From a virus, in IMG/VR virus record IMGVR_UViG_3300027844_002282: a DNA stretch of 64,000 nucleotides; one strand, written 5' to 3'. The notes under the pieces are model-generated. The model saw nothing but the letters and a program-made list of their open reading frames with translations, made no database searches and was not told the DNA's origin. The first letter of the stretch is position 1. Every line of letters starts with the position of its first letter. The position numbers and the translations under genes are program-made. Shown here in pieces: positions 841 to 38,303 of the stretch.

Positions 841-1168
841 TGGCGAAAAGATATGCTCTAGTAAAAGCGAGCATAAAAAGTTTCAACTAACTCAAGTAAC
901 TATGGATTCAAATGGGCCAGACAGTCTGATTGAAAAGCTATTAAAATGCCACTGCCCTGACGCGGAACATGTGAGAGGCGAAGACCCTGACGAAATAGCG
1001 ATCAGATGGTGTAGAAAACTATGGACGCATTACCATGGATTAGCTTGTCTTGGACAGCCAATGACGCCAATAAAATTTAACTTATAAAATGCCGATGAAA
1101 CATTTATATGGATGATGTCCTGTCTTGTAAGCAGGTTAACTCGGATCGTTACCGAGCTTCGGCTCCAA

Positions 1169-1660
1169 TTACGTCTTCAAACCGCCAGGAGCGTTTTGTT
1201 GATCAAAGTATTGAGTGACAGCACCCTGGTCAAAGTACCCCAGTTCCCCAAGATACTTCTCAACATCCAGGGAAGGGGCGAATACGCTTTTGAAATAAGT
1301 GCGTAGTTTTGGAATCACCTCACTTGGCATAAAGAGCCCGCTTCTGTTCATATCAACAATGTGTATTTGAACCTGTTTGGTCCCTCTCGGATACAACGCT
1401 TCCCCTGCGTATGGGATAAGCCACATCTGAAGATACCCCAGACGAACATTCGTAGGGGCGAAAACCTGGATTTCAACAAGACTCCTGTCAGATCTATTTT
1501 CGACCCTTGATTTCACCTCAAGACCAAAAAACTCTTGAACTATATTAACAGCCCCGGCCTCTGCGGCCTGAACGTCTGCATCGTCCAAAGCCAATTTCTT
1601 GTCCAAAACAGATCTTACTTTCTGTTGAAGGGCATCATTATCGTCTGCATAAATTCTCAT
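1169..1660 (-). CDS. hypothetical protein
   Basis: 163-aa ORF preceded by an AGG-N19-GTA motif (1701-1725, minus strand). Confidence 0.65.
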   Translation of the reverse strand: MRIYADDNDALQQKVRSVLDKKLALDDADVQAAEAGAVNIVQEFFGLEVKSRVENRSDRSLVEIQVFAPTNVRLGYLQMWLIPYAGEALYPRGTKQVQIHIVDMNRSGLFMPSEVIPKLRTYFKSVFAPSLDVEKYLGELGYFDQGAVTQYFDQQNAPGGLKT

Positions 1661-1737
1661 GAAAATAACCTAATATGTAAAATTAACTTGTTTTTTCATA
1701 TACGCGGTTACATTGCAGATATCCTTTTTCAATCTAT

Positions 1738-1801
1738 ACATTGGTGGCGCAACAGGCTCTTAATCTGAAGGTTGCGGGTTCGATTACCGCCCGATGCACC
1801 A
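1738..1801 (+). pseudogene. degenerate tRNA-Lys(CUU), D-arm missing
   Basis: anticodon loop CTCTTAA, GGTTCGAT T-loop and 3' CCGATGC-A-CCA; 5' strand ACATTGG; D-arm collapsed to a single GCGC. Confidence 0.6.
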
Positions 1802-1802
1802 A

Positions 1803-2075
1803 TTACTCAAGGCCGAGCATCTCTTTTGCTCTCTCGTCAGTGATCAAGCCTGATTCAAAAGACTTAAAGATTTGCTCGAAAGAGAAACCGTCTTTGTAAA
1901 TACGGCCAATCTCGTAAGCCTCGTTCCCATGCGGAACGGTAATTACAGCAGTGGCAGCCTGGGCGGCACCTAATTGCTTTTCGACTCTGGCCTTTTCTGA
2001 CTCAAGGTCTTGGACGGAAGCGGGTGAATTTTGAGAGCCAACAGTAACGACAAATAATCTTTTACTCATAATCAA
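1803..2075 (-). CDS. hypothetical protein
   Basis: 90-aa ORF with an AGGAG RBS upstream. Confidence 0.6.
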   Translation of the reverse strand: MIMSKRLFVVTVGSQNSPASVQDLESEKARVEKQLGAAQAATAVITVPHGNEAYEIGRIYKDGFSFEQIFKSFESGLITDERAKEMLGLE

Positions 2076-2113
2076 ACTCCTGTGGTTAGGTTAAAATATA
2101 TTATACATCACAT

Positions 2114-2193
2114 GGACGCATAGCTTAGTCTGGCTAAAGCGCTTGTATGACACATGCAAGAGATCGTTGGTTCGAATCCAACTGTGTTCACCA
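2114..2193 (+). tRNA. tRNA-Val(GAC)-like with a 9-nt anticodon loop
   Basis: acceptor GGACGCA/TGTGTTC, D-arm GCTT..AAGC, stem CTTGT/GCAAG around ATGACACAT, T-arm GTTGG-TTCGAAT-CCAAC, encoded CCA. Confidence 0.75.
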
Positions 2194-2483
2194 AACTTAA
2201 AAATATTAATAGAAGGTCATATTATGGGTAAACATCACGAATGTAAAATTACAAAACTAAAAGACCAGGAATTTTTCAAGAAAGATAATCCACACTATGG
2301 AAGGTCTCGCAGAATTTATAAGCAAGAATTCCACAGCCTTTGACCCAGATGATAAGAAAAAGCTAAAGCTATGGGCGGAAGAAGAGTTCGCGAGGCAAGA
2401 AAGGGCGTTAACAACTTGATATCAATAAGTAGTTAAAAGGATCTTAGTTAAAATCTAAAGAAATAGCCTATGGAGGCTATAAA

Positions 2484-2780
2484 ATGGATGCTGACGAAAA
2501 AGATTTACAGAAAAGTCTTGGGATTGAAAACATAGATGAAGAAGATGAACTTCAGGACGTGATAGGGAGAGAGGGGAAGATCGTTGAGGCGGACTTCCTG
2601 ATTACGCAAATAATAATGCTACAATCCATCCTTAGAAGGGACTACTCTATCGACGAAAGAGAAATTAGGAAAAGGTCTTCCGTACTATGTAGAAGGTCCA
2701 ATTTCGAATATTTATCAGATATTGTTAGAGAAATTGAATCCTTAAGAATAAGACATGACAAGAAAAATACGGCGGGATAG
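2484..2780 (+). CDS. hypothetical protein
   Basis: GGAGG RBS and AGG-N19-GAA motif upstream; 3' end overlaps the tRNA at 2771. Confidence 0.65.
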   Translation: MDADEKDLQKSLGIENIDEEDELQDVIGREGKIVEADFLITQIIMLQSILRRDYSIDEREIRKRSSVLCRRSNFEYLSDIVREIESLRIRHDKKNTAG

Positions 2781-2838
2781 CTCAACTGGAAGAGCACTTG
2801 TTTCATACGCAAGAGGTTGGGGGGCGGTTCCGCCACCA
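2771..2838 (+). pseudogene. tRNA with CAU anticodon (Met/Ile2), T-arm largely missing
   Basis: acceptor GGCGGGA/TTCCGCC-A-CCA, D-arm GCTC..GAGC, CTTGT-TTCATAC-GCAAG; only GGGGGGCGG remains of the T-arm. Confidence 0.65.
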
Positions 2839-3336
2839 ATTTCCCACAACGACTTGAAAACAACGATAACAGTGCTATGTTATCTCATAACCTGCTTAAG
2901 GAAAAATCATGAATCATTACATCGAAGTGTTGATCAAACAAGAGATTGGGAAATTTGTCGAGGAAGAATTGAGAGGTAGATATAGAGATTACGTCTCAGA
3001 CATCTTCTTGACTTCAATCTTATTGAATCGTATGAATGACAGCCATCATCATGGCGGCATATCAAGAGGTTAGTACTTTTTCGAGGACGACCACAACGCC
3101 ACCGTTTTTTTACGAAGCATCTTGCTGTATCTTTGAATCGATCTTATAGTATGGTTGCAAAGTTGGCGGGAATGGCCATCACGTTGCCCAGAACTTTTAT
3201 TCATACATGAAGATAAGATTGCATGGAGTGACAAGGGAAATCGCTATTAAAAAGGGCGAGACTATAGAAAGGGGTTATAATTAGCGCTCTTGAAGGAGAA
3301 CTTAGTAAAAATCTCATAGAAGCCCGTGTCCCCCAT

Positions 3337-3543
3337 TTGGCTGCGGCGATAAGAGACATGGAAGGTTGCCCTAATGGAGATCTAAAGTGTTCAAGGTGCA
3401 AAGCTGAAGGTGCGTCAAACAACAGACAACGCACCGCATATGCAAATCCAGACAATATGGCAATTTATTGCCCATCATGTCAAGAAGAAGCGGACGCTTA
3501 TTGGAAAGAGCAATGGGATGAATATTACGGTGCAATATTATAA
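3337..3543 (+). CDS. small Cys-rich (Zn-ribbon-like) protein, start uncertain
   Basis: two CxxC pairs (CSRC, CPSC). Confidence 0.45.
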   Translation: MAAAIRDMEGCPNGDLKCSRCKAEGASNNRQRTAYANPDNMAIYCPSCQEEADAYWKEQWDEYYGAIL

Positions 3544-3563
3544 CTCGTAACCAGGAAGACATT

Positions 3564-3824
3564 ATGACAATTTATAGAAGAACAATGGAAATTTCTAACA
3601 AAGAGTTGAGCAATGGCCAATGGGAAATTTTTAACAAAAAGAATATTGAATTTATTGCTCTGGCGCTAAGGAGCGACAAGTGGACATCAATTGATAATTT
3701 ATCAAAAGACATTGGGCTCTATAGAAAAGCTCATAAAGAGCCAGAAATAACTCAAGAAGAGATCATCGTAGCGTTAGAAAGTTTAATATTGCACGACATG
3801 GCGGAGTGCAAAGAGTCCGAATAA
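3564..3824 (+). CDS. hypothetical protein
   Basis: 86-aa ORF with AGGAAG upstream. Confidence 0.55.
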   Translation: MTIYRRTMEISNKELSNGQWEIFNKKNIEFIALALRSDKWTSIDNLSKDIGLYRKAHKEPEITQEEIIVALESLILHDMAECKESE

Positions 3825-3841
3825 TACAACGAGAGGGAAGT

Positions 3842-4324
3842 ATGGAAGATATGAAATGGGAAATTGAGCCTCACAAACTAAGTCCGTGTCCTGGAGACTA
3901 TGGTGAAATAATAGGGAACGTTAACCAAATGGAATATAATGGTAAAGAAATCCCATGGATACAGGATGTTCATTTATTGGTTGGCCAGCTACCCACATTT
4001 GAAAAAGAGATGAAATACGCGGTATTTCATGATTGCGTAGTAAAGTTAGACCGGAACACGTGCAAAAGTAAGCTAATGCCAGTTTATGAGGTGATCTCCA
4101 AAAGAAGGCCCATAGACACAAACGGTGAGGGAAACGAGTCTACTTACAAAGAGATGGAGATATTTCTTATGTCATGTCATCTTGACGCAAGAAGGACCTT
4201 GGCCTGCAATGTTCTCAAAGAGCTTGGTTGTGATTATGTAACTATGATTAGAAGGTTGGGTCCAACAATGATCGGCCCGCCAAACGGCTTTATTTATGAA
4301 GAATTAGCAATCGTTGGTCAATAA
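3842..4324 (+). CDS. hypothetical protein
   Basis: ATG at 3842 after GAGGGAAG; same frame as the listed ORF 3806..4324. Confidence 0.55.
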   Translation: MEDMKWEIEPHKLSPCPGDYGEIIGNVNQMEYNGKEIPWIQDVHLLVGQLPTFEKEMKYAVFHDCVVKLDRNTCKSKLMPVYEVISKRRPIDTNGEGNESTYKEMEIFLMSCHLDARRTLACNVLKELGCDYVTMIRRLGPTMIGPPNGFIYEELAIVGQ

Positions 4325-4329
4325 TATAT

Positions 4330-4403
4330 GCTCTTGTGGTGAAAAGGAATCATTTCTCTTTCCTAAAGAGATGTTGCGGGTTCAAGTCCTGCCGGGAGTA
4401 CCA
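4330..4403 (+). tRNA. tRNA-Arg(CCU)
   Basis: GCTCTTG/CGGGAGT acceptor, TCTCT-TTCCTAA-AGAGA anticodon arm, GCGGG-TTCAAGT-CCTGC T-arm, CCA. Confidence 0.85.
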
Positions 4404-4813
4404 ATATAGTCCAAATATGATCCTCTCACCAATCTTGTTTATCAAAGATTATTTTGAAGGAATCGCATACGGACCTCCGAGAAAGTATAAAGCGAACATG
4501 AAATTAGTTTGTAATGACATCTATAGTTTAATAGGGGCCAGAGCATTTTCAATTTTATAGAACAGGTAAAAAGAACAAACAGCAGGTATAGGTATGAATA
4601 TCGAAAAAAATTTTTATATAACGATGTCCAATTCGGCGTAGAGGTCTTAGTACCAAGTTACCATACCATAGATAAAAACGCCATAAATAACGCGATAATA
4701 AAACTTGTAATGACTGGAGTGAAAAACATCAGTGTTGTAAAGTCTGGAGGCCAGGTCGGAATCATGGGATCAGAAAAAGAAATAACACCATGGTCTATAT
4801 TTGGGGGAAGGGA

Positions 4814-5326
4814 ATGAAAAAGAGTTCATTAATCCTGTTTATACTAATGACCATGGAGGCATTCTCATTTGAACCAAGGATGCAGGCCGAAGTCAGAACA
4901 TACACTCCAGAGCACCTGGTTCCAAAAAAAGCAACAATTGAGCTTCTCGATGGCACTAAGATAATCGGAACTATAGAAGACAAAGATGGGAAATACATTA
5001 TCAAATCCGAATCTGCCGGTGAAATAATCATAGAAAAAGACGAGGCGAAAATTATTGAATATAAGGAACGGGTTGTAAAGAAGAAAAGCGAGGGGAAAAA
5101 AACAATCAGTGATCTACAACAAATGATGCTTTCAGACCCAGACTTGATCAATGAAATCATTCTTAGGTTCGCCACTGATAAAGATTTTCTTGATGTTATA
5201 TCAGACCCAGAAGTAATAAAACATATCCAAGATTTTAATCTATTGGAGCTTCTTACAAATCCGAAAATACAGGCTCTTACCGAAAAGGAAAGCATTAAAG
5301 ATTTTACCAAAAAAGTCACTGAATAA
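4814..5326 (+). CDS. putative exported protein
   Basis: MKKSSLILFILMTMEAFS resembles a signal peptide. Confidence 0.6.
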   Translation: MKKSSLILFILMTMEAFSFEPRMQAEVRTYTPEHLVPKKATIELLDGTKIIGTIEDKDGKYIIKSESAGEIIIEKDEAKIIEYKERVVKKKSEGKKTISDLQQMMLSDPDLINEIILRFATDKDFLDVISDPEVIKHIQDFNLLELLTNPKIQALTEKESIKDFTKKVTE

Positions 5327-5328
5327 TT

Positions 5329-5721
5329 ATGGTCGAAGATGAAAAAGAATTACAAGGAATGATTGGACCTAACGGCGGGCCAGATATCCTATTTATAAGA
5401 AAATCTGAGACTCTTGATAGCATAGTCACAGAATACGAGTGGCCAAACGGATCTTCTTTCAGACTGGGATTCTCAGAACAGGGAGTCCGTGGGGATATTT
5501 ATTGCGCGGACAGAAGTGGCGGTGTTAAAATGGGAATAGTAGACGACTCAGGAGGGTTTACTGTCCCAACATACTATTGTCATAAAATAAATATGCCAGT
5601 AATAATTAACGAATTGGCTATGCGTAGCTGTCGTAATATTTACATACTTAGAAAGGGCTCAGAACTTGGCGTGTTTGGCGGAAACATAGAACTTGATCTT
5701 TCTAAACCAGACAGGGGCTAA
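5329..5721 (+). CDS. hypothetical protein
   Basis: 130-aa ORF tightly coupled to the upstream gene. Confidence 0.55.
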   Translation: MVEDEKELQGMIGPNGGPDILFIRKSETLDSIVTEYEWPNGSSFRLGFSEQGVRGDIYCADRSGGVKMGIVDDSGGFTVPTYYCHKINMPVIINELAMRSCRNIYILRKGSELGVFGGNIELDLSKPDRG

Positions 5722-5727
5722 AGACTA

Positions 5728-5925
5728 ATGCTAAGTAGAGAGTTCCTGTTAGATTTAGAAAAATGTTGTGGCAGCGGATGCTTTAACTGCCCATATGACC
5801 CAAGGCACACGAGAGGGTCAGAAAAAATTTCAAAAGACGCCCCTGTAGTTCAATCGGAAGAACAGTTGCCTTCGAAGCAATCGCGTCCGGGTTCGAATCC
5901 TGGCAGGGGTACCAATAACGATTAA
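5728..5925 (+). CDS. small Cys-rich protein (DUF5522-like)
   Basis: CCGSGCFNCPY motif; the ORF as read runs through the tRNA at 5839, so the true end is probably earlier. Confidence 0.55.
   Translation: MLSREFLLDLEKCCGSGCFNCPYDPRHTRGSEKISKDAPVVQSEEQLPSKQSRPGSNPGRGTNND
5839..5914 (+). tRNA. tRNA-Arg(UCG)
   Basis: GCCCCTG/CAGGGGT acceptor, GTTGC-CTTCGAA-GCAAT, CCGGG-TTCGAAT-CCTGG, CCA. Confidence 0.9.
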
Positions 5926-6034
5926 TCTGGATTAGGGAGCCAGTTGAATGCCAACTTCCCAAGGACGGGCGTTGAGGAATCCTCAATAGCTCTTACGAGA
6001 GCGAATCCTTGTTAAAAACACGTCGCCATTTTAC

Positions 6035-6299
6035 GTCGATGTAGGCGAGAGGAATAGCCATCGTAAACACGGAAATGAAGTCCCTAACGGGAGTATGAGA
6101 AGATATATCTCGGTAATATAGCTGCGTTGTGGCGTTCCCGGTATACGTCTTTTGGTATAAAGGTTGTAAATGAGCTTCTAAGGCGACCTGGAAAAGCGAA
6201 GAGTGGAACCAGGTGGGTATAAGTAACCTGCCTTATTGATGCCCGTGACCTAACAGTACCGTTCATACCACGTCGATTCAAGTCCGACCATCGACACCA
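6035..6299 (+). ncRNA. tRNA-shaped RNA with a 211-nt insert replacing the anticodon/variable arms
   Basis: perfect acceptor GTCGATG/CATCGAC plus A-CCA, D-arm GGC-GAGAGGAATA-GCC, T-arm GTCGA-TTCAAGT-CCGAC; 6061-6271 lies between them. Confidence 0.75.
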
Positions 6300-6329
6300 A
6301 TTATGTAGAACCAAAAACGTAGAGAATTT

Positions 6330-6416
6330 GCATCGGTGACCGAATTGGCTGAAGGTATCAGACTTTTAATCTGAAGAGCTAAGGCTCCACTGGGGGTTCG
6401 AATCCCTCCCGATGTA
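6330..6416 (+). tRNA. tRNA-Lys(UUU) with long variable arm, no encoded CCA
   Basis: GCATCGG/CCGATGT acceptor, TCAGA-CTTTTAA-TCTGA, variable hairpin GAGC-TAAG-GCTC, GGGGG-TTCGAAT-CCCTC. Confidence 0.85.
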
Positions 6417-6501
6417 AATGTGAAACCATAACCAATAAAGAACAACTAATAGATAACAATAAATAGAATAACATAATCATAACTCAAAAAAAGGGGGGCG
6501 C

Positions 6502-6900
6502 ATGAGTTGGTGGAAATTTTGGTCTAAGACCAAAAATTATAGGGTGTCGGGAGCGGAAGTGATTGAAGAAAAATGGCCAAGTGACAGGCTAATAATTATA
6601 AGAAAAAACAAGGGCGAATCAGTGATCTATTTGAAAGACACTAAGACCCCAGTAATAGCAAGAAACGATGATAATGATTACATTTTAATACCAAAATTTG
6701 AAGTGGGTAAACCATATCTAAAACTGAAAGATCTCGCATACAAAATAGCAAAATTCGGAATCTATACACACATACACATTTTCAACATAGACGGGAGTAC
6801 GGTAGCGGTGGTGGGAACCGTTAGAAAAATCGGGTTAGCTAAGGAGTTTTATAGCATAAGAGATAGCTCAAGCGCACATAATATTAACAAATATGTATAA
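6502..6900 (+). CDS. hypothetical protein
   Basis: 132-aa ORF with a G-rich RBS. Confidence 0.6.
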   Translation: MSWWKFWSKTKNYRVSGAEVIEEKWPSDRLIIIRKNKGESVIYLKDTKTPVIARNDDNDYILIPKFEVGKPYLKLKDLAYKIAKFGIYTHIHIFNIDGSTVAVVGTVRKIGLAKEFYSIRDSSSAHNINKYV

Positions 6901-6968
6901 AAGGGCTTGACTTTTCCCAATACCGAGCATATATTATCAACCAACGTACAATCAACAAGAGGTGAACC

Positions 6969-7496
6969 ATGAAGCTCCCGGTGTTATTAGTATTTTCAGC
7001 GTTCTTATCTGGATGTGCAACTTTACCAGTGGGGAAACAGTCTGCACCACCAATATACACCTGTGAAACAATGCTCCCACCACTTCTTGAGGATTTTTAC
7101 AGAATTTATCGAGAACCATACGTGGAAAACTTGTACGATTGTTCAAATAAATCTGCAAAATACACCCTCAAGTTGAGAGAAAATGGATTTGAGGCAAACA
7201 CGATCCTTATTGAACAAGTCGGCTATGTTGTTGGCGACTTTATACACGCGGTTGTTATTATAAAGATAGGGGACGATTGTGAGTTTTTCTGTGATATTAC
7301 AAATGGGACTTGGACTACCGATTTACCCACACTCGGAATTCCTTTAGCCTACGTCAACAGTATAGACTTGTTGACGAATTATGAATATGTTAACAATTTG
7401 CATTTGATCCCGTTTTTGGGAGAAGTGATAAAAGTGAGAGCTAATGGGGTCTTATACATAGACATAGCCGTTCCCGTTGTACTTGCACCAAAGTAG
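6969..7496 (+). CDS. putative lipoprotein with a transglutaminase/papain-like Cys-His-Asp arrangement
   Basis: lipobox FLSG-C; YDCSNKS ... IHAVV ... CDIT; GAGGTG RBS and TTGACT promoter-like element upstream. Confidence 0.55.
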   Translation: MKLPVLLVFSAFLSGCATLPVGKQSAPPIYTCETMLPPLLEDFYRIYREPYVENLYDCSNKSAKYTLKLRENGFEANTILIEQVGYVVGDFIHAVVIIKIGDDCEFFCDITNGTWTTDLPTLGIPLAYVNSIDLLTNYEYVNNLHLIPFLGEVIKVRANGVLYIDIAVPVVLAPK

Positions 7497-7554
7497 AGAT
7501 GGGAGTATAGCTCAGATAGGGTTTTTACAGTTAGTTGTTCTCAATTAAAGAAGG

Positions 7555-7794
7555 ATGTTTCAGGAAAAATGCGTGTTCGTATGTGAAACCTGCGGAACAA
7601 AACATCGAAAAGAAAAGACGGCCAAAGGGTGCTCGATACTTGACAAAAGGGAAGCTATCATTAAGAAGTGCAAAAATTACACTGTAATGTTTGACTCGGC
7701 GATCCATAGACATAATCCAAATGCAGATACAGCAGATAGGTTTTTGGCTGGATTTATCATAGACCAAGCCATTAACGATCCAGATTGGGAATGA
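7555..7794 (+). CDS. hypothetical protein
   Basis: 79-aa ORF with a CETCG motif. Confidence 0.5.
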   Translation: MFQEKCVFVCETCGTKHRKEKTAKGCSILDKREAIIKKCKNYTVMFDSAIHRHNPNADTADRFLAGFIIDQAINDPDWE

Positions 7795-7795
7795 C

Positions 7796-8008
7796 ATGAA
7801 AAATATTACCATATATGATGAAGAATGGAGATATTACCAAAAAGAAAATGGGGACACGATTTTATACTCCCCTCTATATCAGATATATGAAATCGGATTC
7901 GCCCACTGTAACAAGTTGATGCATACAGGATTCACCATAATAGATCCTGTAAAATTGAGTGAGTACATAAAGAGGTATATTTTGGAGACTAATCATGGGT
8001 CTAAGTAA
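7796..8008 (+). CDS. hypothetical protein
   Basis: ORF coupled to both neighbours. Confidence 0.5.
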   Translation: MKNITIYDEEWRYYQKENGDTILYSPLYQIYEIGFAHCNKLMHTGFTIIDPVKLSEYIKRYILETNHGSK

Positions 8009-8333
8009 CCATTGGAAATCTGACAAGGGAGTAAAATTCGATCACGAGTTAAGACTAATAAACAATGGAATAGGTGAAGGCGAAATGGTCTTCTTTGGTG
8101 GAAAATGCTATCACGACATGGTATTTGGAATCACCAATATATCATTAGGGCGAGATGAGATCAGCAATGAGGCAATAATCAGAATATCCGAAGTTCTTGA
8201 TGAGACTTCATACAAAGCGGCGAAAGAACATGCAGATCCGCAATGGGAGATGCAAGATTTTGAATATGATGATTTTAGACTCATGTTCAGGAAATACGCA
8301 GAGGCAGGAGCAACGTTAACTGGATCGTGGTAG
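7995..8333 (+). CDS. hypothetical protein
   Basis: 112-aa ORF with a GGAG RBS. Confidence 0.55.
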   Translation: MGLSNHWKSDKGVKFDHELRLINNGIGEGEMVFFGGKCYHDMVFGITNISLGRDEISNEAIIRISEVLDETSYKAAKEHADPQWEMQDFEYDDFRLMFRKYAEAGATLTGSW

Positions 8334-8351
8334 ATTCGAGGAATACAAACA

Positions 8352-8795
8352 ATGATATCAACAGAAAATCCGAAAGGAACAATCGTAATCACAAGCGGAT
8401 ATTTTGACCCTCTACATGTAGGACATATAGAGTATCTTGAGTTAGCAAAACACTGGGGCGACTATTTAATAGCGATAGTCAACAACAACAATCAAGCTCT
8501 CCTTAAAAGCGGCGGATTTTTAATGGATCAGTTCGATAGGTTGAAAATTGTTGGCTCATTGGGAATAGTTGATTCCGCACACCTTTCCATTGATAAGGGG
8601 CAATCAGTGAAGGACACAGTCGCTTACTTGCGACAGCAGTACCCAGACAACAAAATGATCTTCGCCAATGGCGGAGACAGGCCCTCTGAGGGGCTCGAAG
8701 AGACCCAAGTGTGTGCTGATGGCGGAATCGAGTTAATAGACGGCCTCGGTGATAAGATCAGATCTTCATCAGATTTTAGGAATTATTCTGTGTAG
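8352..8795 (+). CDS. cytidylyltransferase-family nucleotidyltransferase (HldC/RfaE2- or TagD-like)
   Basis: SGYFDPLHVGH (HxGH) motif, FANGGDR and C-terminal SSS. Confidence 0.85.
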   Translation: MISTENPKGTIVITSGYFDPLHVGHIEYLELAKHWGDYLIAIVNNNNQALLKSGGFLMDQFDRLKIVGSLGIVDSAHLSIDKGQSVKDTVAYLRQQYPDNKMIFANGGDRPSEGLEETQVCADGGIELIDGLGDKIRSSSDFRNYSV

Positions 8796-9267
8796 ATTGT
8801 AGCTCGTCCTTATACGATTGCAGCGCCGGGTTGTCAGCATCCCTTTGACGAACCCTCTTTTGAAAACCAGGATCGTCTTTCAACCAACCCTTTGCATCCC
8901 CCATCATGGTACTGATTCCAATACTTTTTGATTTTTCCTTAAGATATCTGTCCCAGGCACTAATCGTGTCATCTATTCCTGAGTCCATGCCTTTGACCAA
9001 GTCAAAAAACTTTCTCACCGCAAGATAGGCGGCATTTTTCTTTTCGTCATTACTATCGAGATTCAACACCGACAATATAGCGTGAGCTTCATTATAAGCA
9101 TTTTCAATCTGTAGCCTCTTCCTTGGATACATGACTTGAAGCCGATCCCTTACTGGCACATCGCCCGGCCCAGCTGTTATAGTCCAACCTCGACTCTTAG
9201 CCGTAGAAACCCAATCCTTTTTGCTTGTTTCGAGCACCTTGTTGCCATTTTTAGTTTTTATTATCAT
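8776..9267 (-). CDS. hypothetical protein with a basic/Trp N-terminal segment
   Basis: 163-aa ORF with GAGGG RBS; begins MIIKTKNG...SKKDW...GW. Confidence 0.65.
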   Translation of the reverse strand: MIIKTKNGNKVLETSKKDWVSTAKSRGWTITAGPGDVPVRDRLQVMYPRKRLQIENAYNEAHAILSVLNLDSNDEKKNAAYLAVRKFFDLVKGMDSGIDDTISAWDRYLKEKSKSIGISTMMGDAKGWLKDDPGFQKRVRQRDADNPALQSYKDELQSTQNNS

Positions 9268-9464
9268 TACGCCCTCTTATGATTGGGTTGTGTTTTGTTA
9301 TGTTGTGATTATGTTACTTATTTTTAGTAATACTCCTTCATAGAGCTTGCAAAACCAGTAATTAACGGTATAATATCACTGTTATGAACGCCATCCAGCC
9401 CGGAACGGCTGAGATGATAGGAAAAGCCCCGGACTGAACACTGGGGCATTTTCTATTTTAGGGC

Positions 9465-9492
9465 TTGACAAATGGGAAACACGAACTATTGT
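9465..9492 (+). promoter_or_regulatory. sigma70-like promoter of the RNase P RNA
   Basis: TTGACA-16 nt-TATTGT just upstream of the P1 helix. Confidence 0.55.
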
Positions 9493-9507
9493 TATGTATT
9501 AACAATT

Positions 9508-9703
9508 TCTTTTAGGCCGACTCGTCGCTGGTTAAACCAGAGGAAAGTCAGGACTACACTTCTTAAGGTAGGACGGAAAACCGGATAGCACTACCGAGGT
9601 AGCAACGCAAACAGGCTGAGTGTGTGAGAAGCACTGTGAAGCCGGGTAGCGGCAAAGATTAATGACGAGGTTGAAACAAAATCCTGCTTACGAGCCTAAA
9701 AGA
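9508..9703 (+). ncRNA. rnpB: minimal RNase P RNA
   Basis: P1 TCTTTTAGGC/GCCTAAAAGA, P2 CTCGTC/GACGAG, P3 CTGG/CCAG, conserved GAGGAAAGTCAGG and AACAAAATCCTGCTTA strands forming P4. Confidence 0.85.
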
Positions 9704-9721
9704 TTAATTATTGGTTAAAAA

Positions 9722-10060
9722 ATGGAATGTCTAAATCAAAATAAAACTCACAAACGAGGTGAAGAATTGGAGAAACCAAGCAAAGTGAAGATGGTCATAC
9801 GTTTCTTGATATTTTTTGCTATATCATTCCTTTTAATCGAAGGAATAGAGCATATTCTTCATGAGGTCTTCGATATACACATGCACGGCTGGTTTTCTTG
9901 GGGCGGACTTGGGGTTATCATCTTATTTGGATTTAAATTTCACATGATTTGTTGCGTCATTCCCTCAATCATCGCGGCAATCCTCTGCATTAAGAAGCGC
10001 CACAAACATTGCGACCATGATCATTGCAAGAATGGGGCCCAGGATGAAAAACAGCCATAA
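9722..10060 (+). CDS. small His-rich membrane protein
   Basis: 2-3 hydrophobic segments; HKHCDHDHC tail. Confidence 0.6.
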   Translation: MECLNQNKTHKRGEELEKPSKVKMVIRFLIFFAISFLLIEGIEHILHEVFDIHMHGWFSWGGLGVIILFGFKFHMICCVIPSIIAAILCIKKRHKHCDHDHCKNGAQDEKQP

Positions 10061-10475
10061 GACTGCGAAATCGAGAGATAAGGCCTCTGCCCCCGCACGA
10101 TGGCTCAATAGAAAGTATTTATTAGTTGATAGATGCTTAGACTATGGGTGCGGTGCGGTAAGGGCACAGACGCTGATGAATTGTCAATGCACCGATATGA
10201 TCCACATTTTTTCCCGACCTCACCAGAAGGTTTATATGACACGATTACATGCACTTATGTATTAAATGCAGTTAGCGAGGAAGAGGGGGGCGGAAATCAT
10301 CATCAAAATAAGAGGGCTCCTTAAGGATAGCGGTGTAGCATATATAACTGTCAGGAGAGACGTAAAAGAAGATGGTTGGACAAGAAGGAGTACATTTCAG
10401 AGGAATGTCATTTTGGATGAAGAATCATTAATTGACAATTCCAGTTTCTGCATTTACAAAATAAATAAGGAGTAG
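10044..10475 (+). pseudogene. class I SAM methyltransferase, frameshifted
   Basis: LDYGCG, YDPHFF, YDTITCTYVLN and AYITVRRD motifs spread over three reading frames. Confidence 0.7.
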
Positions 10476-10477
10476 AC

Positions 10478-11464
10478 ATGAACGGTGAACCTCTCGTATT
10501 TTCTGGGCGTTCCAACGAAAAGTTGGCAAAAAGCGTTGCGCGGTATTTATCGATTCCACTTGGCAACAGATTTATCAAGCTTTTTGAAAGCAATAGCAAC
10601 CGGGGGGAAATACATGTCGAATATAACTGTAACCTCCGAAAACGAGACATTGTCATAATCCAAACCATCTTCGATCCAGTGAACGATGACTTAATGGAAT
10701 TGCTCGTCATGATCGATTGTGCTAAGAGGGCAAAGGCAAAAAATATCACCGTAATTATTCCTTATATGGGATACTCAAGACAGGATCGCAAAGATAAGCC
10801 AAGAGTTCCCATCACATCAAAGTTGGTGGCTGGACTTATTGGGTATGCGGGGGCAGACGACGCTCTTCTCATAAACTTACATGCTCCACAAATCGAGGGG
10901 TTCTTCGATATTGGTGTCGATCACATTTCATGCACCAAGATTATGGTGGAAGAACTTCTTAAGACGATTGGCAAATGCCCCACAGAAGACATTGTAATGG
11001 TCGCTCCAGACGAAGGCGCTGGAAAGATTGCCAAAGAGTACAGAAAGTTCGTTCCAGGATCAAGATTGGCTGTAATATCAAAAACCAGACATAGCGGAAC
11101 AAACACGACATCTGACTTCATCATGGGAGAGGTTGACGGTAAGGTCTGTGTTCTTGTAGACGACTTGACCTCGACTGGTGGCACCTTGATCAATGGGGCG
11201 GAGTTGCTTATGAAAAAGGGGGCAACAAAAGTTTATGTTGCTGTCGCTCATGGCTGCTTTATCAACAATGGAAAAATCAAGAGCTATGAAAATATTGAAA
11301 ATAGTTGTATCGAAAAAGTTTTGGTGACAAACTCTATTGACGTAAAGAAAAGTCCAAAAATTAAAATCGTAAACCTTGGAAAATTAATCGGAGAGTGTGT
11401 CCTTAGAGCTAACGACGGAAGGTCGATTTCGGATCTCTTTTCTTCACCGGAGGACGACGAATGA
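10478..11464 (+). CDS. prs: ribose-phosphate pyrophosphokinase (PRPP synthetase)
   Basis: PYMGYSRQDRK, NLHAPQIEGFF, VAPDEG and LVDDLTSTGGT motifs. Confidence 0.95.
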   Translation: MNGEPLVFSGRSNEKLAKSVARYLSIPLGNRFIKLFESNSNRGEIHVEYNCNLRKRDIVIIQTIFDPVNDDLMELLVMIDCAKRAKAKNITVIIPYMGYSRQDRKDKPRVPITSKLVAGLIGYAGADDALLINLHAPQIEGFFDIGVDHISCTKIMVEELLKTIGKCPTEDIVMVAPDEGAGKIAKEYRKFVPGSRLAVISKTRHSGTNTTSDFIMGEVDGKVCVLVDDLTSTGGTLINGAELLMKKGATKVYVAVAHGCFINNGKIKSYENIENSCIEKVLVTNSIDVKKSPKIKIVNLGKLIGECVLRANDGRSISDLFSSPEDDE

Positions 11465-11889
11465 GCCTTAAAAGAAGTATACAGATAGCATACGAAAACA
11501 AGCTCGCTCGCGGGTGGGACAGAACTTATTGGGCTATCGACTTGCATGGAACAATATGCCCTGGGGGATATTATTTAAACGATTTGGAGAACCAATCATT
11601 TTATCCTATGGCAGAAGAGGCGTTGAAAACGTTGACAGCAGATCCCGAATTGATTTTAATCTTATGGACTTGCTCACACGAGCCTTACATAGAAGGGTAT
11701 TTGAAATGGTTTAAGAAACATGGAATCAAGTTTGATTTCATAAATTCTAATTTAGAATGTCTCCCAAATGAATTTCAAGATTTTAGCAAGAAGTTTTATT
11801 GCAATGTTATTCTTGATGATAAAGCCGGATTTAATCCGTTATCTGATTGGCAGACTGTTCTTGAAGGGTATATACAATACAAAGAATAA
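11461..11889 (+). CDS. HAD-superfamily hydrolase-like protein
   Basis: IDLHGTI, ILWTC and ILDDKAG motifs. Confidence 0.7.
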   Translation: MSLKRSIQIAYENKLARGWDRTYWAIDLHGTICPGGYYLNDLENQSFYPMAEEALKTLTADPELILILWTCSHEPYIEGYLKWFKKHGIKFDFINSNLECLPNEFQDFSKKFYCNVILDDKAGFNPLSDWQTVLEGYIQYKE

Positions 11890-12347
11890 TGGGTAATTGG
11901 TACAAAACAGCTAAGAATAAATCCGCTAAAATGCCAGAAAATTTTTAAGTTGTTGAGAAGGGTCCCGACAATGGTTATTCATTAGACTGGAAACTATGGG
12001 CAGGCGCAAATGACTGGGAGGCCGGAATCACTCTAATGGCAGTCCTATTTGGACGTGATACACCTGGTCAGAATAGAATCTGGGTTGAGATAGATAATAG
12101 CCAATTCCCAGATGGAAACAATAACGATAAAAAAGATGACGTTATTAATGAAATCAGAGAGTGGGGAGATCTCGCTATTAAGACTTGGATCGATGAAATG
12201 AAAGTCTCCGAGAAAGAAAAGGGCAAAGACTGGGAGAACCTACCACTTGACAATTTCATGGGTGCTTTAGATTCAGATAAAATGAAACCATTTATATCTG
12301 AATGGGGATTTGATTCCTTATTATGGAAACCTACTGGTAAAAATTAA
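11889..12347 (+). pseudogene. WYK-leader protein with one in-frame TAA
   Basis: MGNWYKTAK start is in frame with ORF 12036..12347, interrupted only by TAA at 11946-11948. Confidence 0.6.
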
Positions 12348-12443
12348 AGACGATCCTAATTTAACTTTAGCCCCTCATCACCTATTAGACTTTCAAATAG
12401 TTCCCACCAAGTGCCTTGAGAACGTTGTGGTACAGAACGGTTA

Positions 12444-13052
12444 TCAAGCGTAAGCTTTGGTCTTCTCTTCTGACGCATGAATGTAATCGATTGAAACTTT
12501 CGGCACCAACTTGGTGTAATCGAAAAATATCCATCTCTTCATGTCCTCAACCACTTCGTCTTCATTAACATGTCTGAGGTATTCATTTATTTCATCCCAG
12601 GTGCTAAACATGTGCTCATCCGGGATCATACCAAACATCCAGTCGGGAATTTCGCTCTTCCCCTGTTTGCAGTGTATGAGGACGGGGTTCTTCATCCTGT
12701 TGGCCCAACTAATCTCTTCATGGGTTCCACAAGTTGGTATTGAGGTATCGAGATTAACAATTAAGAAGTCGGCCATATCGACCATTCTAAGATCAACGAT
12801 TCTCACCTTTTTCATTTCACTGGCAATCGTTTTGTAATCCCCATCTTCTTTTAATTTAGTCCTATACTGAAGACACTCTATATCCAACCCGTCCTCAAGG
12901 TCAATGGGCTTGTCGCATGGGTTAAGAACAACAATCCCCATCTTTTCGAGTATATCACCTTCCCACACCCGCCATTCCGCGCCCTGATCGGGGGCCTTGT
13001 CCATCGCACCCGACAAGTAGCATCTCATTCCCCATAACCTGTGATTTTTCAT
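12444..13052 (-). CDS. nucleoside 2-deoxyribosyltransferase-like protein
   Basis: YLSGAMD, VLNP, DLRMVDMAD and GTHEE motifs. Confidence 0.75.
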   Translation of the reverse strand: MKNHRLWGMRCYLSGAMDKAPDQGAEWRVWEGDILEKMGIVVLNPCDKPIDLEDGLDIECLQYRTKLKEDGDYKTIASEMKKVRIVDLRMVDMADFLIVNLDTSIPTCGTHEEISWANRMKNPVLIHCKQGKSEIPDWMFGMIPDEHMFSTWDEINEYLRHVNEDEVVEDMKRWIFFDYTKLVPKVSIDYIHASEEKTKAYA

Positions 13053-13650
13053 ATTAACTCCAGTGTTGTGTTAAATAACATACTATACTCAAAATTTCTC
13101 GTAATACAAGCAGGAAGGAGCCAGATCGGTGAGCCAAGTAATAATAATAATAATGGAAGTTGATAGTCAAATCATTAGTTTATTTTTGATTGTCCATCTT
13201 TTCGATGGATGGGGTGGCAGCGAGTTAGTCGTTGATAAAGCAACAACGCTATCTCATGGGTTTGCAAAAACACAAGTATTCACCCTCAATCAAAAATCTA
13301 AAATCGGAATCGGCACTGTTACTATTTCGGAATTTGGAGAATATGATGGCGTAGTTAAAGGCAAAGTTGTTTTATGTATGCGGTCTATACTTGAACTCTT
13401 CTATAAAGAACACGATAAAAAATGTTTCTGAAGGAGGCGCACGAAGAGTTCTCCTACCAATGGATTGTGTTGTTATAAGCCAAGACGAAACATTGAAATA
13501 TTATTTTGAAAGGAGATTCCACAATGACGAAGAAAAACTTGTTGAATACCTAAACAAAAATATAGGGCCTGAAATTGACAGAAGACATGTAATGGTCGTG
13601 TCAGGCGGATACATTGCCATAGAATTTTATTAACGATGTAGAATGATAGT

Positions 13651-15349: not shown

Positions 15350-16054
15350 GGGGACGTAACAGGTATTCGACTAGAATGGTAGAATATCAATTGCATGTCG
15401 AGGATGACTGTTGGCCTCGTTAAACATCAGTTAAAAAACATAAAAGCGAACAACGAAGAAATCCTTCAGTTCCCTGGTCTTGATGCAGGTTTTGCAGCAC
15501 CAGTAGAGGCTCCGGCCTTTGCAATCGCTGCCTAATTAGTTGACAGACTAACTCGGCCTTAATTGAGCCGAGCGCTTAACGGATGGACCCTTGATAAATC
15601 CGTAAGCGACAAAAATCGAGGAAAGCGCTTGATACTGACTCACCTGAGTTGAGAGTGAAAGTTTTAGGTGATCGTCATACTGCCAGTTGGTGTTAATACC
15701 TGCGAATGTAATACGGCACAGACTAAAAGATAGCAAAATTAACTATACATGTAGACGTTGATATAAAGTTGTTTTAGGACGCGGGTTCGATCAAATTGGT
15801 CGCCATGAGAAGTGATTCTCATTGGAAACTGAGAGCTTTCACGGTGAAAGCTAAGTTGAGTAATCAATATGCCAACGCCGTATGGTGAATCTGAAAAGAG
15901 GAAGCCATCTAGAGACTTATAGAGTCCTAAGGTATTTATACTATGGATCACTAGGATGGGTAAAACCATAACACGCTCTCCCCTGACTTGTCAGGTGAAG
16001 AAATAGTCCTTGCCAGGTGAAAGTCTGGGTGTACAAGCCCCGCCGTCTCCACCA
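15350..16054 (+). ncRNA. ssrA: tmRNA, intron-containing (exons 15350-15791 and 16038-16054)
   Basis: GGGGACG/CGTCTCC-A-CCA acceptor with G3:U70, GGTATTCGAC, tag ORF 15446-15535 (ANNEEILQFPGLDAGFAAPVEAPAFAIAA*); spliced T-arm GCGGG-TTCGATC-CCCGC. Confidence 0.93.
15792..16037 (+). mobile_element. group I intron in the tmRNA T-loop (246 nt, no ORF)
   Basis: 5' exon ends in U pairing with G in P1 (CGAUC/GGUCG); terminal G; P3 GAGAGC/GCTCTC; core elements AGAGACTTAT (15911) and GAAGAAATAGTCC (15997); P8 CCTGAC..TCAGG. Confidence 0.9.
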
Positions 16055-16059
16055 ATATG

Positions 16060-36704: not shown

Positions 36705-38303
36705 TTACACTTGTGAGCTAACAAGTGACTGCACAACTTCCTGGAATCTCGGATCTGCCTCTAAGGCTGATCGTACATTCGCTTTCGTGACTTCAAGATC
36801 TTCATCGATCAAAGACGGATTATCAAGAATAATGTCTTCCTGAACTTCTTTGATGATTCCAATATGACGCCCCGGCTTGATATCAGGAACTCTGGCTCTC
36901 AACATATTCATGATCTCATGCCCATCAATAATGTCCTTCCCCTTTTCAGGGAGCTTCTCCATCATTAACTCAGGCATCCTGTTCTTTATCAACGCACTAT
37001 TGTTCTTCAGCTCACCTTCTGCGGGAATTGAAGAGACTTCATCCGCGACGAGAAGAGCAAGAACGTCATCAAAAGCATCGTCCATATCTCTGTAATAGCG
37101 TCTAAAGGCCTTGTCACCCCATTCTCCGGCGCTGTGTCCTCTCATATGATTATCAACAAGCTTAACAGTTTTATCGACAACGTCATTGGGATACTTCAAA
37201 GCCTTCATTCTCTCTTTAATCATATCTCCAGAATGCTTCTCGTGCTTGTAGAAATGGATTCTATCATCGACCCTCTCTTGAGTGACTGCCTTCCCCCAAT
37301 CGTGAGAGATAGCCGCCCAAGTAAGATGGATTCCAGCATCGGGGTTCTCATTTTCCAAAGCCTCAATAACTTTCAAGGTATGGACGTATGCATCCCCTTC
37401 ACTGTGATGGACAGTATCCTGTTCAACTCCAATCAAAGCATGCATCTCAGGGAGAATGGGCTCAAGGAGATCAAGCTCTTCCATCAACGGAATAGCTTCA
37501 TGCATCTTACCGTACCCAGCAATTTTGTCAATTTCACCACGAAATCTTTCTGCTGAAGTATTGGAGAGATTGTGAATATTATTCCTGATCGCCTCTTTCA
37601 CTTCGTCAGTCATAGTCCATCCATGCTTAACAGCAAATCTGACACCCCTAAGCATTCTAAGAGCATCGTCCTCAAAGATCGGATTGGGATCGCTCGGAGT
37701 CCTGATAATTCCATCTTCAATATCCTTCAAGCCCATTCCGGTCAAATCCACAATGTCGCCATTAGATATTTTTTCTGCAAGAACATCGGGGGAAATAACA
37801 GGTCCAGCCTCCATCTTCTTCAAAAGAGAGTTAACAGTAAAATCCCGTCTCATAACATCATCTTGAAGAGTCCCAAAGGCAACCTCCGGTTTACGACTTC
37901 CGGTCCTGTACTGCTCCTTTCTGGTTTGAACGGCTTCGATCTCAATGCCATCGACATTGTATGTCTGTCCTTTGTATATCAAATCTTTCAATATGACAGC
38001 GTAAACACCGTATCCCTTATCAATAGGGGGCTTCAAGCCAAGAATCGATGTGACGTAATCGCCAAACACCAAGCCACCATCGGGATATTCGATTACAGCA
38101 TCGATATCCTTGGGGATAATTCCAAGCATCTCATCTCTGACAGTTCCGCCAACGATGTAAGACTTTCCTTTGAGAACATGCCCATTGGGAATGTTCTTTG
38201 CCACTTCCGACAAAAGAATCTGCGCCTGAACAAAAGGGGCGTCGGAATTATCCGCATCAGCAGTCAAGTATTTTTCTAAATAAGTTTTTTTGTACCAGTC
38301 CAT
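36705..38303 (-). CDS. cca: CCA-adding tRNA nucleotidyltransferase (class II) with an HD domain and WYK leader
   Basis: VGGTVRD, KDID, RRDFTVN, DDALRMLRGVRF, HHSEGDAYVHT and HDWGK. Confidence 0.9.
   Translation of the reverse strand: MDWYKKTYLEKYLTADADNSDAPFVQAQILLSEVAKNIPNGHVLKGKSYIVGGTVRDEMLGIIPKDIDAVIEYPDGGLVFGDYVTSILGLKPPIDKGYGVYAVILKDLIYKGQTYNVDGIEIEAVQTRKEQYRTGSRKPEVAFGTLQDDVMRRDFTVNSLLKKMEAGPVISPDVLAEKISNGDIVDLTGMGLKDIEDGIIRTPSDPNPIFEDDALRMLRGVRFAVKHGWTMTDEVKEAIRNNIHNLSNTSAERFRGEIDKIAGYGKMHEAIPLMEELDLLEPILPEMHALIGVEQDTVHHSEGDAYVHTLKVIEALENENPDAGIHLTWAAISHDWGKAVTQERVDDRIHFYKHEKHSGDMIKERMKALKYPNDVVDKTVKLVDNHMRGHSAGEWGDKAFRRYYRDMDDAFDDVLALLVADEVSSIPAEGELKNNSALIKNRMPELMMEKLPEKGKDIIDGHEIMNMLRARVPDIKPGRHIGIIKEVQEDIILDNPSLIDEDLEVTKANVRSALEADPRFQEVVQSLVSSQV

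What the first reader, a model, noticed from the sequence alone, without database searches (positions are those of the whole stretch)
9508..9703. Phage-encoded, ultra-short (~196 nt) RNase P RNA
Seen: P1, P2, P3 and both conserved P4 strands are present, with a compensatory change relative to the usual consensus (AGUCAGG/CCUGCUU versus AGUCCGG/CCGGCUU), but only about 110 nt lie between the 5' P4 strand and the 3' strand of P2. Knowledge: typical bacterial RNase P RNAs are roughly 350-400 nt with a specificity domain that reads the tRNA T-loop. Inference: a catalytic-domain-only ribozyme, probably borrowing host RnpA, that may have relaxed specificity suited to this phage's atypical tRNA-like substrates.
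Basis: partly seen in the sequence, partly recalled or inferred. Interest (0 to 1): 0.8.

Follow-up and report, generated by a model that had tools for sequence, protein, structure and literature searches.

The report
Phage-encoded miniature RNase P ribozyme
A large uncultured phage carries a 196-base, half-sized copy of RNase P RNA (the ribozyme that trims new tRNAs) that keeps the whole catalytic half and has lost the half that reads the tRNA shape. It belongs to a widespread phage RNA family that standard annotation misses and that I could not find described in print.

Summary
Window 9508-9703 (+) matches Rfam bacterial class A RNase P RNA end to end (63.9 bits, E 3e-19; below the curated cut-off of 100) with the specificity-domain positions skipped.

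It is not an artefact or a relic. I collected over 100 homologues of 182-271 nt from IMG/VR, JGI metagenomes and both of the largest published phage genomes I checked (642 and 735 kb). Testing a lead from earlier notes of this scan, I also found one in the cultured Stenotrophomonas phage DLP6. Base pairing is kept through compensatory changes in P1-P7 and P15-P17, including a 7-bp P6 pseudoknot. About 95% of cells pair, against 26-46% in slid controls.

P8-P14 and P18 are absent. The P4 bulged U, J5/15 GCAA, L15 GGU, CR-I, CR-IV and CR-V are invariant or nearly so. Most members sit inside phage tRNA arrays; this one stands alone behind its own promoter-like site, near tRNAs, a tmRNA and a CCA-adding enzyme gene.

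It is most likely an active, catalytic-domain-only RNase P RNA that uses the host RnpA. Six of seven large or complete carrier genomes lack rnpA, and one encodes it. Activity, protein partner and relaxed specificity are untested.

This scan has noted the same kind of RNA on at least ten other phage genomes. I found no paper describing it.

The parts
9508..9703 (+). Miniature RNase P RNA gene, 196 nt measured from P1 to P1
   Evidence: RF00010 global match at 63.9 bits, E 3.1e-19; family model R1 165.4 bits; ends set by the 10-bp P1
9465..9492 (+). Promoter-like site TTGACA-16-TATTGT. A start about 10 nt before P1 is inferred, not shown
   Evidence: 10 of 12 consensus matches; only a consensus match
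9426..9447 (+). Terminator-like hairpin plus T-run that closes the upstream unit, making the RNA gene a separate transcription start
9508..9517 (+). P1 5' strand (pairs with 9694-9703)
   Evidence: P1 is present with a different sequence in every member
9521..9526 (+). P2 5' strand CUCGUC (pairs with GACGAG 9666-9671)
   Evidence: 95.5% paired in an independent set, not enforced by the model
9528..9540 (+). P3 hairpin, 5 bp with a 3-nt loop
9540..9552 (+). CR-I / J3-4 and P4 5' strand GAGGAAAGUCAGG, with bulged U9548
   Evidence: the U is invariant in 22 of 22 members
9554..9557 (+). P5 5' strand (pairs with 9599-9602)
   Evidence: 99.7-100% paired, compensatory changes
9559..9565 (+). P6 pseudoknot 5' strand CUUCUUA (pairs with UGAGAAG 9625-9631 in the P17 loop)
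9567..9595 (+). P7 stub that replaces the whole specificity domain. It has a 5-bp stem (9567-9571/9591-9595), a conserved asymmetric internal loop, and a 3-bp cap hairpin (9574-9576/9581-9583)
9602..9605 (+). J5/15 GCAA, invariant. By the Rfam alignment it corresponds to the E. coli segment that holds A248
9606..9651 (+). P15-P16-P17 arm: P15 9606-9608/9649-9651, P16 9614-9617/9640-9643, P17 9620-9622/9632-9634
9645..9647 (+). L15 GGU, invariant; the site that pairs with tRNA 3'-CCA in bacterial type A RNA
   Evidence: invariant; the role is taken from the literature (PMC11143913 figure legend)
9656..9665 (+). CR-IV / J15-2 AGAUUAAUGA. No P18 hairpin precedes it (0 nt where the Rfam model has 24)
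9677..9690 (+). CR-V: J2/4 ACAAAAU plus P4 3' strand CCUGCUU and A
1091..6417 (+). Context: cluster of phage tRNA genes on the same strand, the likely substrates. Four of six ARAGORN tRNAs encode CCA
15360..16054 (+). Context: tmRNA gene (another classical RNase P substrate), apparently interrupted by a group I-like intron
36705..38303 (-). Context: tRNA nucleotidyltransferase (CCA-adding enzyme) gene
   Evidence: phrog_2244, 201.7 bits

Best explanation
Window 9508-9703 encodes a functional, virus-borne RNase P RNA reduced to the catalytic domain of the bacterial type A ribozyme. It has P1-P5, a lengthened P6 pseudoknot, P15-P17 with the L15 GGU, and CR-I, CR-IV and CR-V. P7 is capped by a small stem-loop in place of P8-P14, and P18 is absent.

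I infer that during infection it is transcribed from its own promoter and folds into the P4-centred active site. I also infer that it cuts the 5' leaders off the phage's pre-tRNAs and pre-tmRNA, most likely as a hybrid holoenzyme with the host's RnpA protein. Without the T-loop-reading domain, substrate binding would rest on the acceptor stem and the -1 nucleotide, on the 3' end docking in L15, and on the protein gripping the leader.

Shown: homology, architecture, purifying selection on structure and on active-site nucleotides, and linkage to phage tRNA genes. Inferred: catalysis in vivo, the substrates and the protein partner.
For: (1) Homology: RF00010 matches globally, 63.9 bits, E 3e-19.

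(2) Family: 28 of 48 IMG/VR pattern hits, 80 of 80 fetched metagenome loci, the 642-kb and 735-kb phages and cultured phage DLP6 score 71-191 bits with model R1. Non-members score 17 bits or less. There is one copy per large genome.

(3) Covariation on a structure-blind MAFFT alignment: 94.8% of cells pair against 26-46% when slid; 22 of 33 pairs have changes on both sides; 0 of 500 shuffles reach any measure. It was replicated on 75 independent sequences: 95.7% against 30-46%. The helices the model did not enforce also hold (P2 95.5%, P6 core 99.3%, P15 88%). RNAalifold recovers P3, P4, P5, P7, P16 and P17 without guidance.

(4) Active-site and substrate-binding nucleotides are invariant: the bulged U in P4, GAGGAA, GCAAC, GGU, AGA..AUG and ACA.AA.

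(5) Context: 15 of 20 loci have tRNA arrays on the same strand, often abutting the RNA. This window adds a tmRNA and a CCA-adding enzyme.

(6) Bench precedent: the E. coli C-domain alone is active. It needs a P6-like pairing and P15-17, and does not need P18 once the S-domain is gone (PMC5839562). That is exactly what this family keeps and drops.

(7) One carrier (LR756502) encodes an RnpA with the RNR motif.
Against: An engineered E. coli C-domain is about 120-fold slower and about 500-fold less efficient than the full RNA, so usefulness in vivo is not self-evident.

Only 14% of tRNA genes next to family members encode CCA, so the invariant GGU is not simply explained by RCCA pairing.

No rnpA lies in the window, and the rest of this genome could not be searched. 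The single-sequence fold is not unusually stable (z -1.49). The promoter is only a consensus match, and no terminator follows the RNA.
Confidence: 0.7

Rival explanations
1. RnpA decoy or regulator: the mini RNA binds the host RNase P protein and so throttles or redirects host tRNA maturation, without itself needing to be an efficient enzyme.
For: It keeps the regions that bind the protein in bacterial holoenzymes (P2-P3, CR-IV, CR-V). Six of seven large or complete carrier genomes lack their own rnpA. A lone C-domain is a poor catalyst in vitro.
Against: A decoy would not need the invariant bulged U in P4, J5/15 GCAA, L15 GGU, or a covarying P6 and P15-17 arm. Placement inside the phage's own tRNA arrays suggests it serves those tRNAs. 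LR756502 supplies its own RnpA, which is the opposite of titrating it.
Confidence: 0.1
2. A ribozyme retargeted to other substrates: freed of the T-loop-reading domain, it mainly cuts non-tRNA or atypical targets. Candidates are the odd 6035-6299 RNA, intron-bearing tmRNA, phage or host mRNAs and leaders.
For: Loss of the S-domain removes the tRNA-elbow check. The window holds unusual RNAs (earlier notes of this scan). In this window, LR756502, L026, L033 and L056, the RNA is not embedded in a tRNA array.
Against: Across the family the dominant neighbours are ordinary tRNAs. No alternative substrate was identified. The two readings are not exclusive.
Confidence: 0.12
3. A decaying relic of a captured host rnpB gene, with no present function.
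For: It scores below Rfam's threshold and lacks half of the molecule.
Against: More than 100 homologues keep the same truncated architecture, with compensatory changes in every helix and invariant core nucleotides. There is one copy per genome in distantly related phages.
Confidence: 0.02
4. An assembly or deletion artefact of a normal-length gene.
For: None beyond the short length.
Against: The same architecture appears in many independent assemblies from different projects. These include two manually curated complete genomes and a cultured, Sanger/Illumina-finished phage. No full-length RNase P RNA is present in five large carrier genomes.
Confidence: 0.01

Closest known systems
Bacterial type A RNase P RNA (Rfam RF00010; E. 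coli M1 RNA/rnpB, 377 nt; Thermotoga maritima P RNA)
   Same: It has the same catalytic-domain layout and sequence signatures. These are P1-P5, the P6 pseudoknot between J5/7 and L17, P15-P16-P17 with GGU in L15, the bulged U in P4, a 6-bp P2, a 3-nt J5/15 linker within GCAA, and CR-I, CR-IV and CR-V. RF00010 is the best Rfam match and it is global.
   Different: It has no specificity domain (P8-P14, CR-II, CR-III), no P18, a very short P3, and P6 lengthened to 7-8 bp. The P7 stem is capped by a family-specific stem-loop. It is 196 nt rather than about 350-400, it is encoded by viruses, and it scores below the curated threshold (63.9 against 100 bits). In most members, though not this one, the near-universal A-G of the P4 5' strand is replaced by other covarying pairs.
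Engineered catalytic-domain constructs of bacterial P RNA (Eco CP RPR; Mao et al. 2018, PMC5839562, and work cited there)
   Same: This is the same idea realised by nature: the C-domain alone. The bench results say P15-17 and a P6-like pairing are required and that P18 is dispensable once the S-domain is absent. The phage family keeps the first two and drops P18.
   Different: The constructs are laboratory truncations with about 120-fold lower rate and about 500-fold lower efficiency. The phage RNAs are natural, are under selection, and carry extra features (long P6, conserved P7-stub loop) that may compensate. Their activity has not been measured.
Archaeal type T RNase P RNA of Thermoproteaceae (Rfam RF02357; Pyrobaculum, about 200 nt)
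   Same: It is a natural RNase P RNA of similar size that keeps the C-domain, lacks most of the S-domain and lacks P18.
   Different: Type T is archaeal and works with several archaeal proteins. It is defined by a 3-bp P2, a 2-nt P5/P15 linker and a shortened P15. The phage RNA has a 6-bp P2 and a 3-nt CAA linker. RF02357 finds nothing in five carrier genomes. The resemblance is convergent reduction, not membership.

Membership tests
RNase P RNA superfamily (Rfam clan CL00002) | P4 helix formed by CR-I (GAGGAAAGUC...) and CR-V (ACANAA...GGCUUA-like) with a bulged U | tested here: met
   Window 9540-9552 / 9677-9690, 7 of 7 pairs, U9548 bulged. 99% paired with compensatory changes across the family
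RNase P RNA superfamily (Rfam clan CL00002) | Endonucleolytic removal of pre-tRNA 5' leaders | not testable with these tools
Bacterial type A RNase P RNA (RF00010) | Score at or above Rfam's gathering threshold (100 bits) | tested here: not met
   63.9 bits; not reported in the default scan; relatives are missed in whole-genome scans
Bacterial type A RNase P RNA (RF00010) | Type A catalytic domain: P6 pseudoknot, P15-P16-P17, GGU in L15 | tested here: met
   P6 7 of 7 pairs in the window and 92-99% in the family; P15, P16 and P17 covary; GGU invariant
Bacterial type A RNase P RNA (RF00010) | Specificity domain (P8-P14 with CR-II and CR-III) that binds the tRNA T-loop | tested here: not met
   Only 29 nt (9567-9595) lie between the P6 5' strand and the P5 3' strand, forming one capped stem. 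The Rfam alignment skips the corresponding model positions
Bacterial type A RNase P RNA (RF00010) | P18 hairpin between P15 and P2 | tested here: not met
   0 nt where the model has 24. P18 is absent in most members, although DLP6 keeps an insert there
Archaeal type T RNase P RNA (RF02357) | 3-bp P2 and 2-nt P5/P15 linker (PMC3579882) | tested here: not met
   P2 is 6 bp. The linker is CAA, 3 nt, in the invariant GCAAC.
Archaeal type T RNase P RNA (RF02357) | Match to the Rfam type T model | tested here: not met
   No match at E<=1 in five carrier genomes. For the window itself the best clan member is RF00010; the type T score on the window was not shown separately
Bacterial RNase P holoenzyme (P RNA + RnpA, PF00825) | A cognate RnpA protein encoded by the same genome | tested here: inconclusive
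   None in the 64-kb window, and the rest of the genome is not held. Among relatives, LR756502 has one (52 bits). LR756501, DLP6 and four large IMG/VR contigs have none

The most novel reading that the evidence does not exclude
This is a true virus-encoded trans-acting ribozyme and a new natural structural class of RNase P RNA (bacterial type A reduced to its catalytic domain). It assembles with the host's RnpA and gives large phages their own control of tRNA 5' maturation. It would show that the specificity domain is dispensable in vivo for a bacterial-type enzyme. With the conserved long P6 and the P7-stub loop, it would also show how nature compensates for the loss.
Probability: 0.6. Interest if true: 0.85.

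Novelty: new variant of a known kind. Interest (0 to 1): 0.8.

Why it matters
RNase P RNA is one of the two ribozymes shared by all cellular life. To my knowledge, and in the papers I could search, it has been known only from cells and organelles.

A compact version carried by many large phages would add tRNA 5' processing to the list of translation functions that huge phages bring with them. It would provide a natural minimal bacterial-type ribozyme of about 200 nt for structural and mechanistic work. It would also give an in-vivo answer to a question so far addressed only with engineered truncations: what the specificity domain and P18 are needed for.

The family is invisible to routine annotation because it scores below Rfam thresholds, so phage genomes are systematically missing this gene. 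A copy in the cultured phage DLP6 makes the questions directly testable.

Tried and rejected
- **First probe:** the most conserved local block (CACTTCTTAAGNTAGGA) gave eight IMG/VR hits, and all were chance matches.
- **Second probe:** a pattern on the P17 loop plus L15 found nothing.
- **Similarity searches of deposited phages:** megablast of window 1-20000 found nothing. blastn with three members' RNAs found only LR756502, so sequence similarity alone misses DLP6 and LR756501.
- **Single-sequence folding:** uninformative (z -1.49), and the MFE misses the real long-range helices.
- **Whole-genome search of the window's genome:** no genome is held.
- **Rfam scans of five large carrier genomes:** RF00010 and RF02357 found neither the mini RNAs nor any full-length RNase P RNA.
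- **RnpA next to the RNA:** two further phage RnpA loci (L068, L069) have no mini RNA nearby, but both are fragments, so this is inconclusive.
- **L15 and CCA:** I expected tRNAs near family members to encode CCA. Only 14% do, so I dropped this as general support.
- **Downstream ORF 9722-10060:** it has no Pfam or PHROG match and is not RnpA-like.
- **Type T membership:** considered and rejected.
- **Literature:** six full-text searches and targeted reading found no report of a phage or viral RNase P RNA.

Full report
**Observation.** The stretch 9508-9703 (+) was read directly. The default Rfam scan of the window reports six tRNAs and a tmRNA but no RNase P. A permissive scan of 9350-9850 gives one strong hit: RF00010, bacterial class A RNase P RNA, at 9509-9706, 63.9 bits, E 3.1e-19. 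The match is global over model positions 1-367, with the blocks for P7-P14 and P18 skipped.

- P1 is 9508-9517/9694-9703.
- P2 is 9521-9526/9666-9671.
- P3 is 9528-9540.
- P4 is AAGUCAGG/CCUGCUU with U9548 bulged.

The one C-G to A-U exchange relative to the bacterial consensus is as described.

**Is it real, or a relic or artefact?** blastn found a weak relative in LR756502, the 642-kb 'uncultured phage' of Al-Shayeb et al.. Its 205-nt copy again matches an RNase P model globally with the S-domain skipped. Its P4 and P5 differ from the window's on both strands.

A structure-aware pattern (P4 5' strand ... GAGG..GCAAC) pulled 48 IMG/VR loci. Of these, 23 passed the test that a strand complementary to their own P4 5' strand follows ACARAA some 145-205 nt downstream. 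The covariance model later validated five more.

I wrote my proposed structure onto a structure-blind MAFFT alignment of 21 distinct members. It comprised P4, P5, the P6 pseudoknot, P7, P15, P16 and P17, 33 pairs in all.
- 94.8% of cells pair, against 26-46% when the partners are slid by 1-3 columns.
- 22 pairs show changes on both sides.
- There are 146 compensated cells, against 15-29 in the slid controls.
- No shuffle out of 500 reaches any measure.

RNAalifold, run blind, recovers P3, P4, P5, P7, the cap hairpin, P16 and P17. P1 (6-19 bp) has a different sequence in every member, and P2 and P3 are present throughout.

A covariance model built from 22 members (R1) separates members (71-191 bits) from everything else (17 bits or less). 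It finds exactly one copy in the window (165.4 bits) and one per large phage genome.

On these 75 distinct, independent sequences the structure pairs in 95.7% of cells, against 30-46% slid. This includes helices the model did not enforce: P2 95.5%, P6 core 99.3%, P15 88%.

A decaying relic or an assembly artefact is therefore excluded. These include two curated complete genomes and a cultured phage.

**Anatomy.** The RNA is the catalytic domain of a type A RNase P RNA.
- Kept: P1, a 6-bp P2, a very short P3, P4 with the invariant bulged U, and P5.
- Kept: a P6 pseudoknot lengthened to 7-8 bp (window CUUCUUA 9559-9565 with UGAGAAG 9625-9631 in the P17 loop).
- Kept: P15-P16-P17 with an invariant GGU in L15 (9645-9647), and the invariant J5/15 GCAA.
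- Kept: CR-I (GAGGAAAGUC), CR-IV (AGAUUAAUGA) and CR-V (ACAAAAU-CCUGCUUA).
- Missing: P8-P14 with CR-II and CR-III, and P18.

In place of the S-domain, P7 (9567-9571/9591-9595) is closed by a 3-bp hairpin. The hairpin sits beyond a conserved asymmetric internal loop whose role I cannot assign. Family members span 182-271 nt.

**Context.** In 15 of 20 loci the RNA lies in a same-strand tRNA array, often abutting tRNAs on both sides and sometimes near a tmRNA. In such cases its ends would be set by tRNA processing.

The window's copy is different. It follows a terminator-like hairpin (9426-9447) and a promoter-like TTGACA-16-TATTGT (9465-9492). No terminator separates it from the next ORF at 9722. 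It lies 3 kb downstream of a tRNA cluster (1091-6417) and 5.6 kb upstream of a tmRNA. The window also encodes a CCA-adding enzyme (36705-38303).

That enzyme's nearest deposited relative is in the 735-kb phage LR756501 (37.7% identity). LR756501 also carries one mini RNA (149 bits). Al-Shayeb et al. place the genomes above 634 kb in their Mahaphage clade with predicted Bacteroidetes hosts, and they do not mention RNase P. The window's own host is unknown.

In cellular genome collections the pattern occurs only on MAG contigs. One is a 425,361-bp contig binned as an archaeon, with the same length as an IMG/VR phage contig.

**Mechanism.** The conserved nucleotides are those that build the active site and hold the substrate's cleavage site and 3' end, not merely those that bind protein.

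Published bench work on the E. coli C-domain fits closely (PMC5839562). The C-domain alone cleaves, about 120-fold slower and about 500-fold less efficiently than the full RNA. It needs P15-17 and a P6-like pairing. It does not need P18 once the S-domain is absent. The phage family keeps and strengthens P6, keeps P15-17 and drops P18.

I therefore favour an active, C-domain-only RNase P that matures the phage's tRNAs and tmRNA.

On the protein partner:
- Carriers without a PF00825 gene: LR756501 and DLP6 (both complete), and IMG/VR contigs estimated at 100%, 97%, 80% and 77% complete.
- Carrier with its own RnpA: LR756502, with the RNR motif.
- The window: none found.

Use of the host RnpA is thus plausible for most carriers but is not shown.

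**Caveats.**
- No activity or expression data could be obtained.
- Only 14% of tRNA genes beside family members encode CCA. The window (4 of 6) and DLP6 (12 of 12) are exceptions, so the invariance of GGU is not explained simply by RCCA pairing.
- In most members, though not in the window, the near-universal A-G of the P4 5' strand is replaced by other covarying pairs.

**Rivals.** The first two remain possible at low odds. The last two are refuted by the covariation and recurrence above.

**Comparison with known families.** The closest family is bacterial type A (RF00010). The C-domain criteria are met. The S-domain, P18 and the curated score are not. This is a homologue and a new structural variant, not a canonical member.

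Archaeal type T is similar in size and in what it lacks. However, it is defined by a 3-bp P2 and a 2-nt P5/P15 linker, which are not met here. Its Rfam model also finds nothing in carrier genomes.

**Novelty.** Six full-text searches and targeted reading found no report of an RNase P RNA in a phage or virus. Rfam 15 has no family that captures it at threshold.

This scan has already noted and followed up the same kind of RNA on at least ten other phage genomes, so it is not new to the scan. I tested one of those leads with my own model. The cultured Stenotrophomonas phage DLP6 has an unannotated 254-nt copy (72.9 bits, E 8e-19). It lies between a hypothetical CDS and tRNA-Arg in its tRNA array. 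The Microbacterium-phage lead was not tested.

**Verdict.** The finding is real and conserved, and very probably functional. It is a new variant of a known ribozyme in a new kind of host genome, and it can now be tested at the bench.

Noticed in passing
window 15360-16054: The tmRNA gene (RF00023, 91.9 bits) lacks its 3' acceptor and T-arm half in the contiguous match. A weak group I intron signal (RF00028, 22.9 bits, below the threshold of 50, E 0.0017) lies at 15829-16029. This is consistent with an intron interrupting the T-loop, as other first-stage notes propose.
   Followed up: partly
window 6035-6299: A 265-nt stretch that other notes describe as tRNA-shaped (7-bp acceptor stem, encoded ACCA) has no Rfam match at E<=0.1. 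ARAGORN does not call it. Its identity is open.
   Followed up: partly
window 36705-38303 (-): A phage-encoded tRNA nucleotidyltransferase (CCA-adding enzyme; phrog_2244, 201.7 bits). Its closest deposited relative is in the 735-kb phage LR756501 (37.7% identity).
   Followed up: partly
L058 1498-1800 (LR756502.1 about 525186-525488): The 642-kb phage encodes its own 101-aa RnpA-family protein (PF00825, 52 bits, RNR motif RNRVKRLMRE), about 90 kb from its mini RNase P RNA. Two related phage RnpA genes exist in IMG/VR fragments (L068, L069).
   Followed up: partly
L064 (JBBACR010000001.1, 425,361 bp) and L047 (IMGVR_UViG_3300035208_004923, 425,361 bp): A contig deposited as part of a 'Candidatus Pacearchaeota archaeon' MAG has the same length as a huge-phage contig in IMG/VR and an identical mini RNA with identical flanks. 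It is probably a phage genome misbinned into an archaeal MAG.
   Followed up: partly
L027 10630-10985 and L029, L057, L066 (DLP6): Some members carry large insertions. L027 is 356 nt. L029, L057 and DLP6 have a hairpin-forming insert where P18 would be. The loss of P18 is therefore not universal in the family.
   Followed up: no
L031 3246-3318 and L068 13506-13577: ARAGORN calls tRNAs with a CUA anticodon ('Pyl', that is amber suppressor-like) on two viral contigs. This may hint at stop-codon recoding in those phages.
   Followed up: no
window 10478-11464 (+): A ribose-phosphate pyrophosphokinase (PRPP synthetase) gene lies just downstream of the RNA (Pfam PF13793, 134.8 bits), and a cytidylyltransferase-like gene at 8352-8795 lies upstream. 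These are nucleotide and sugar metabolism genes, not RNA-processing partners.
   Followed up: no
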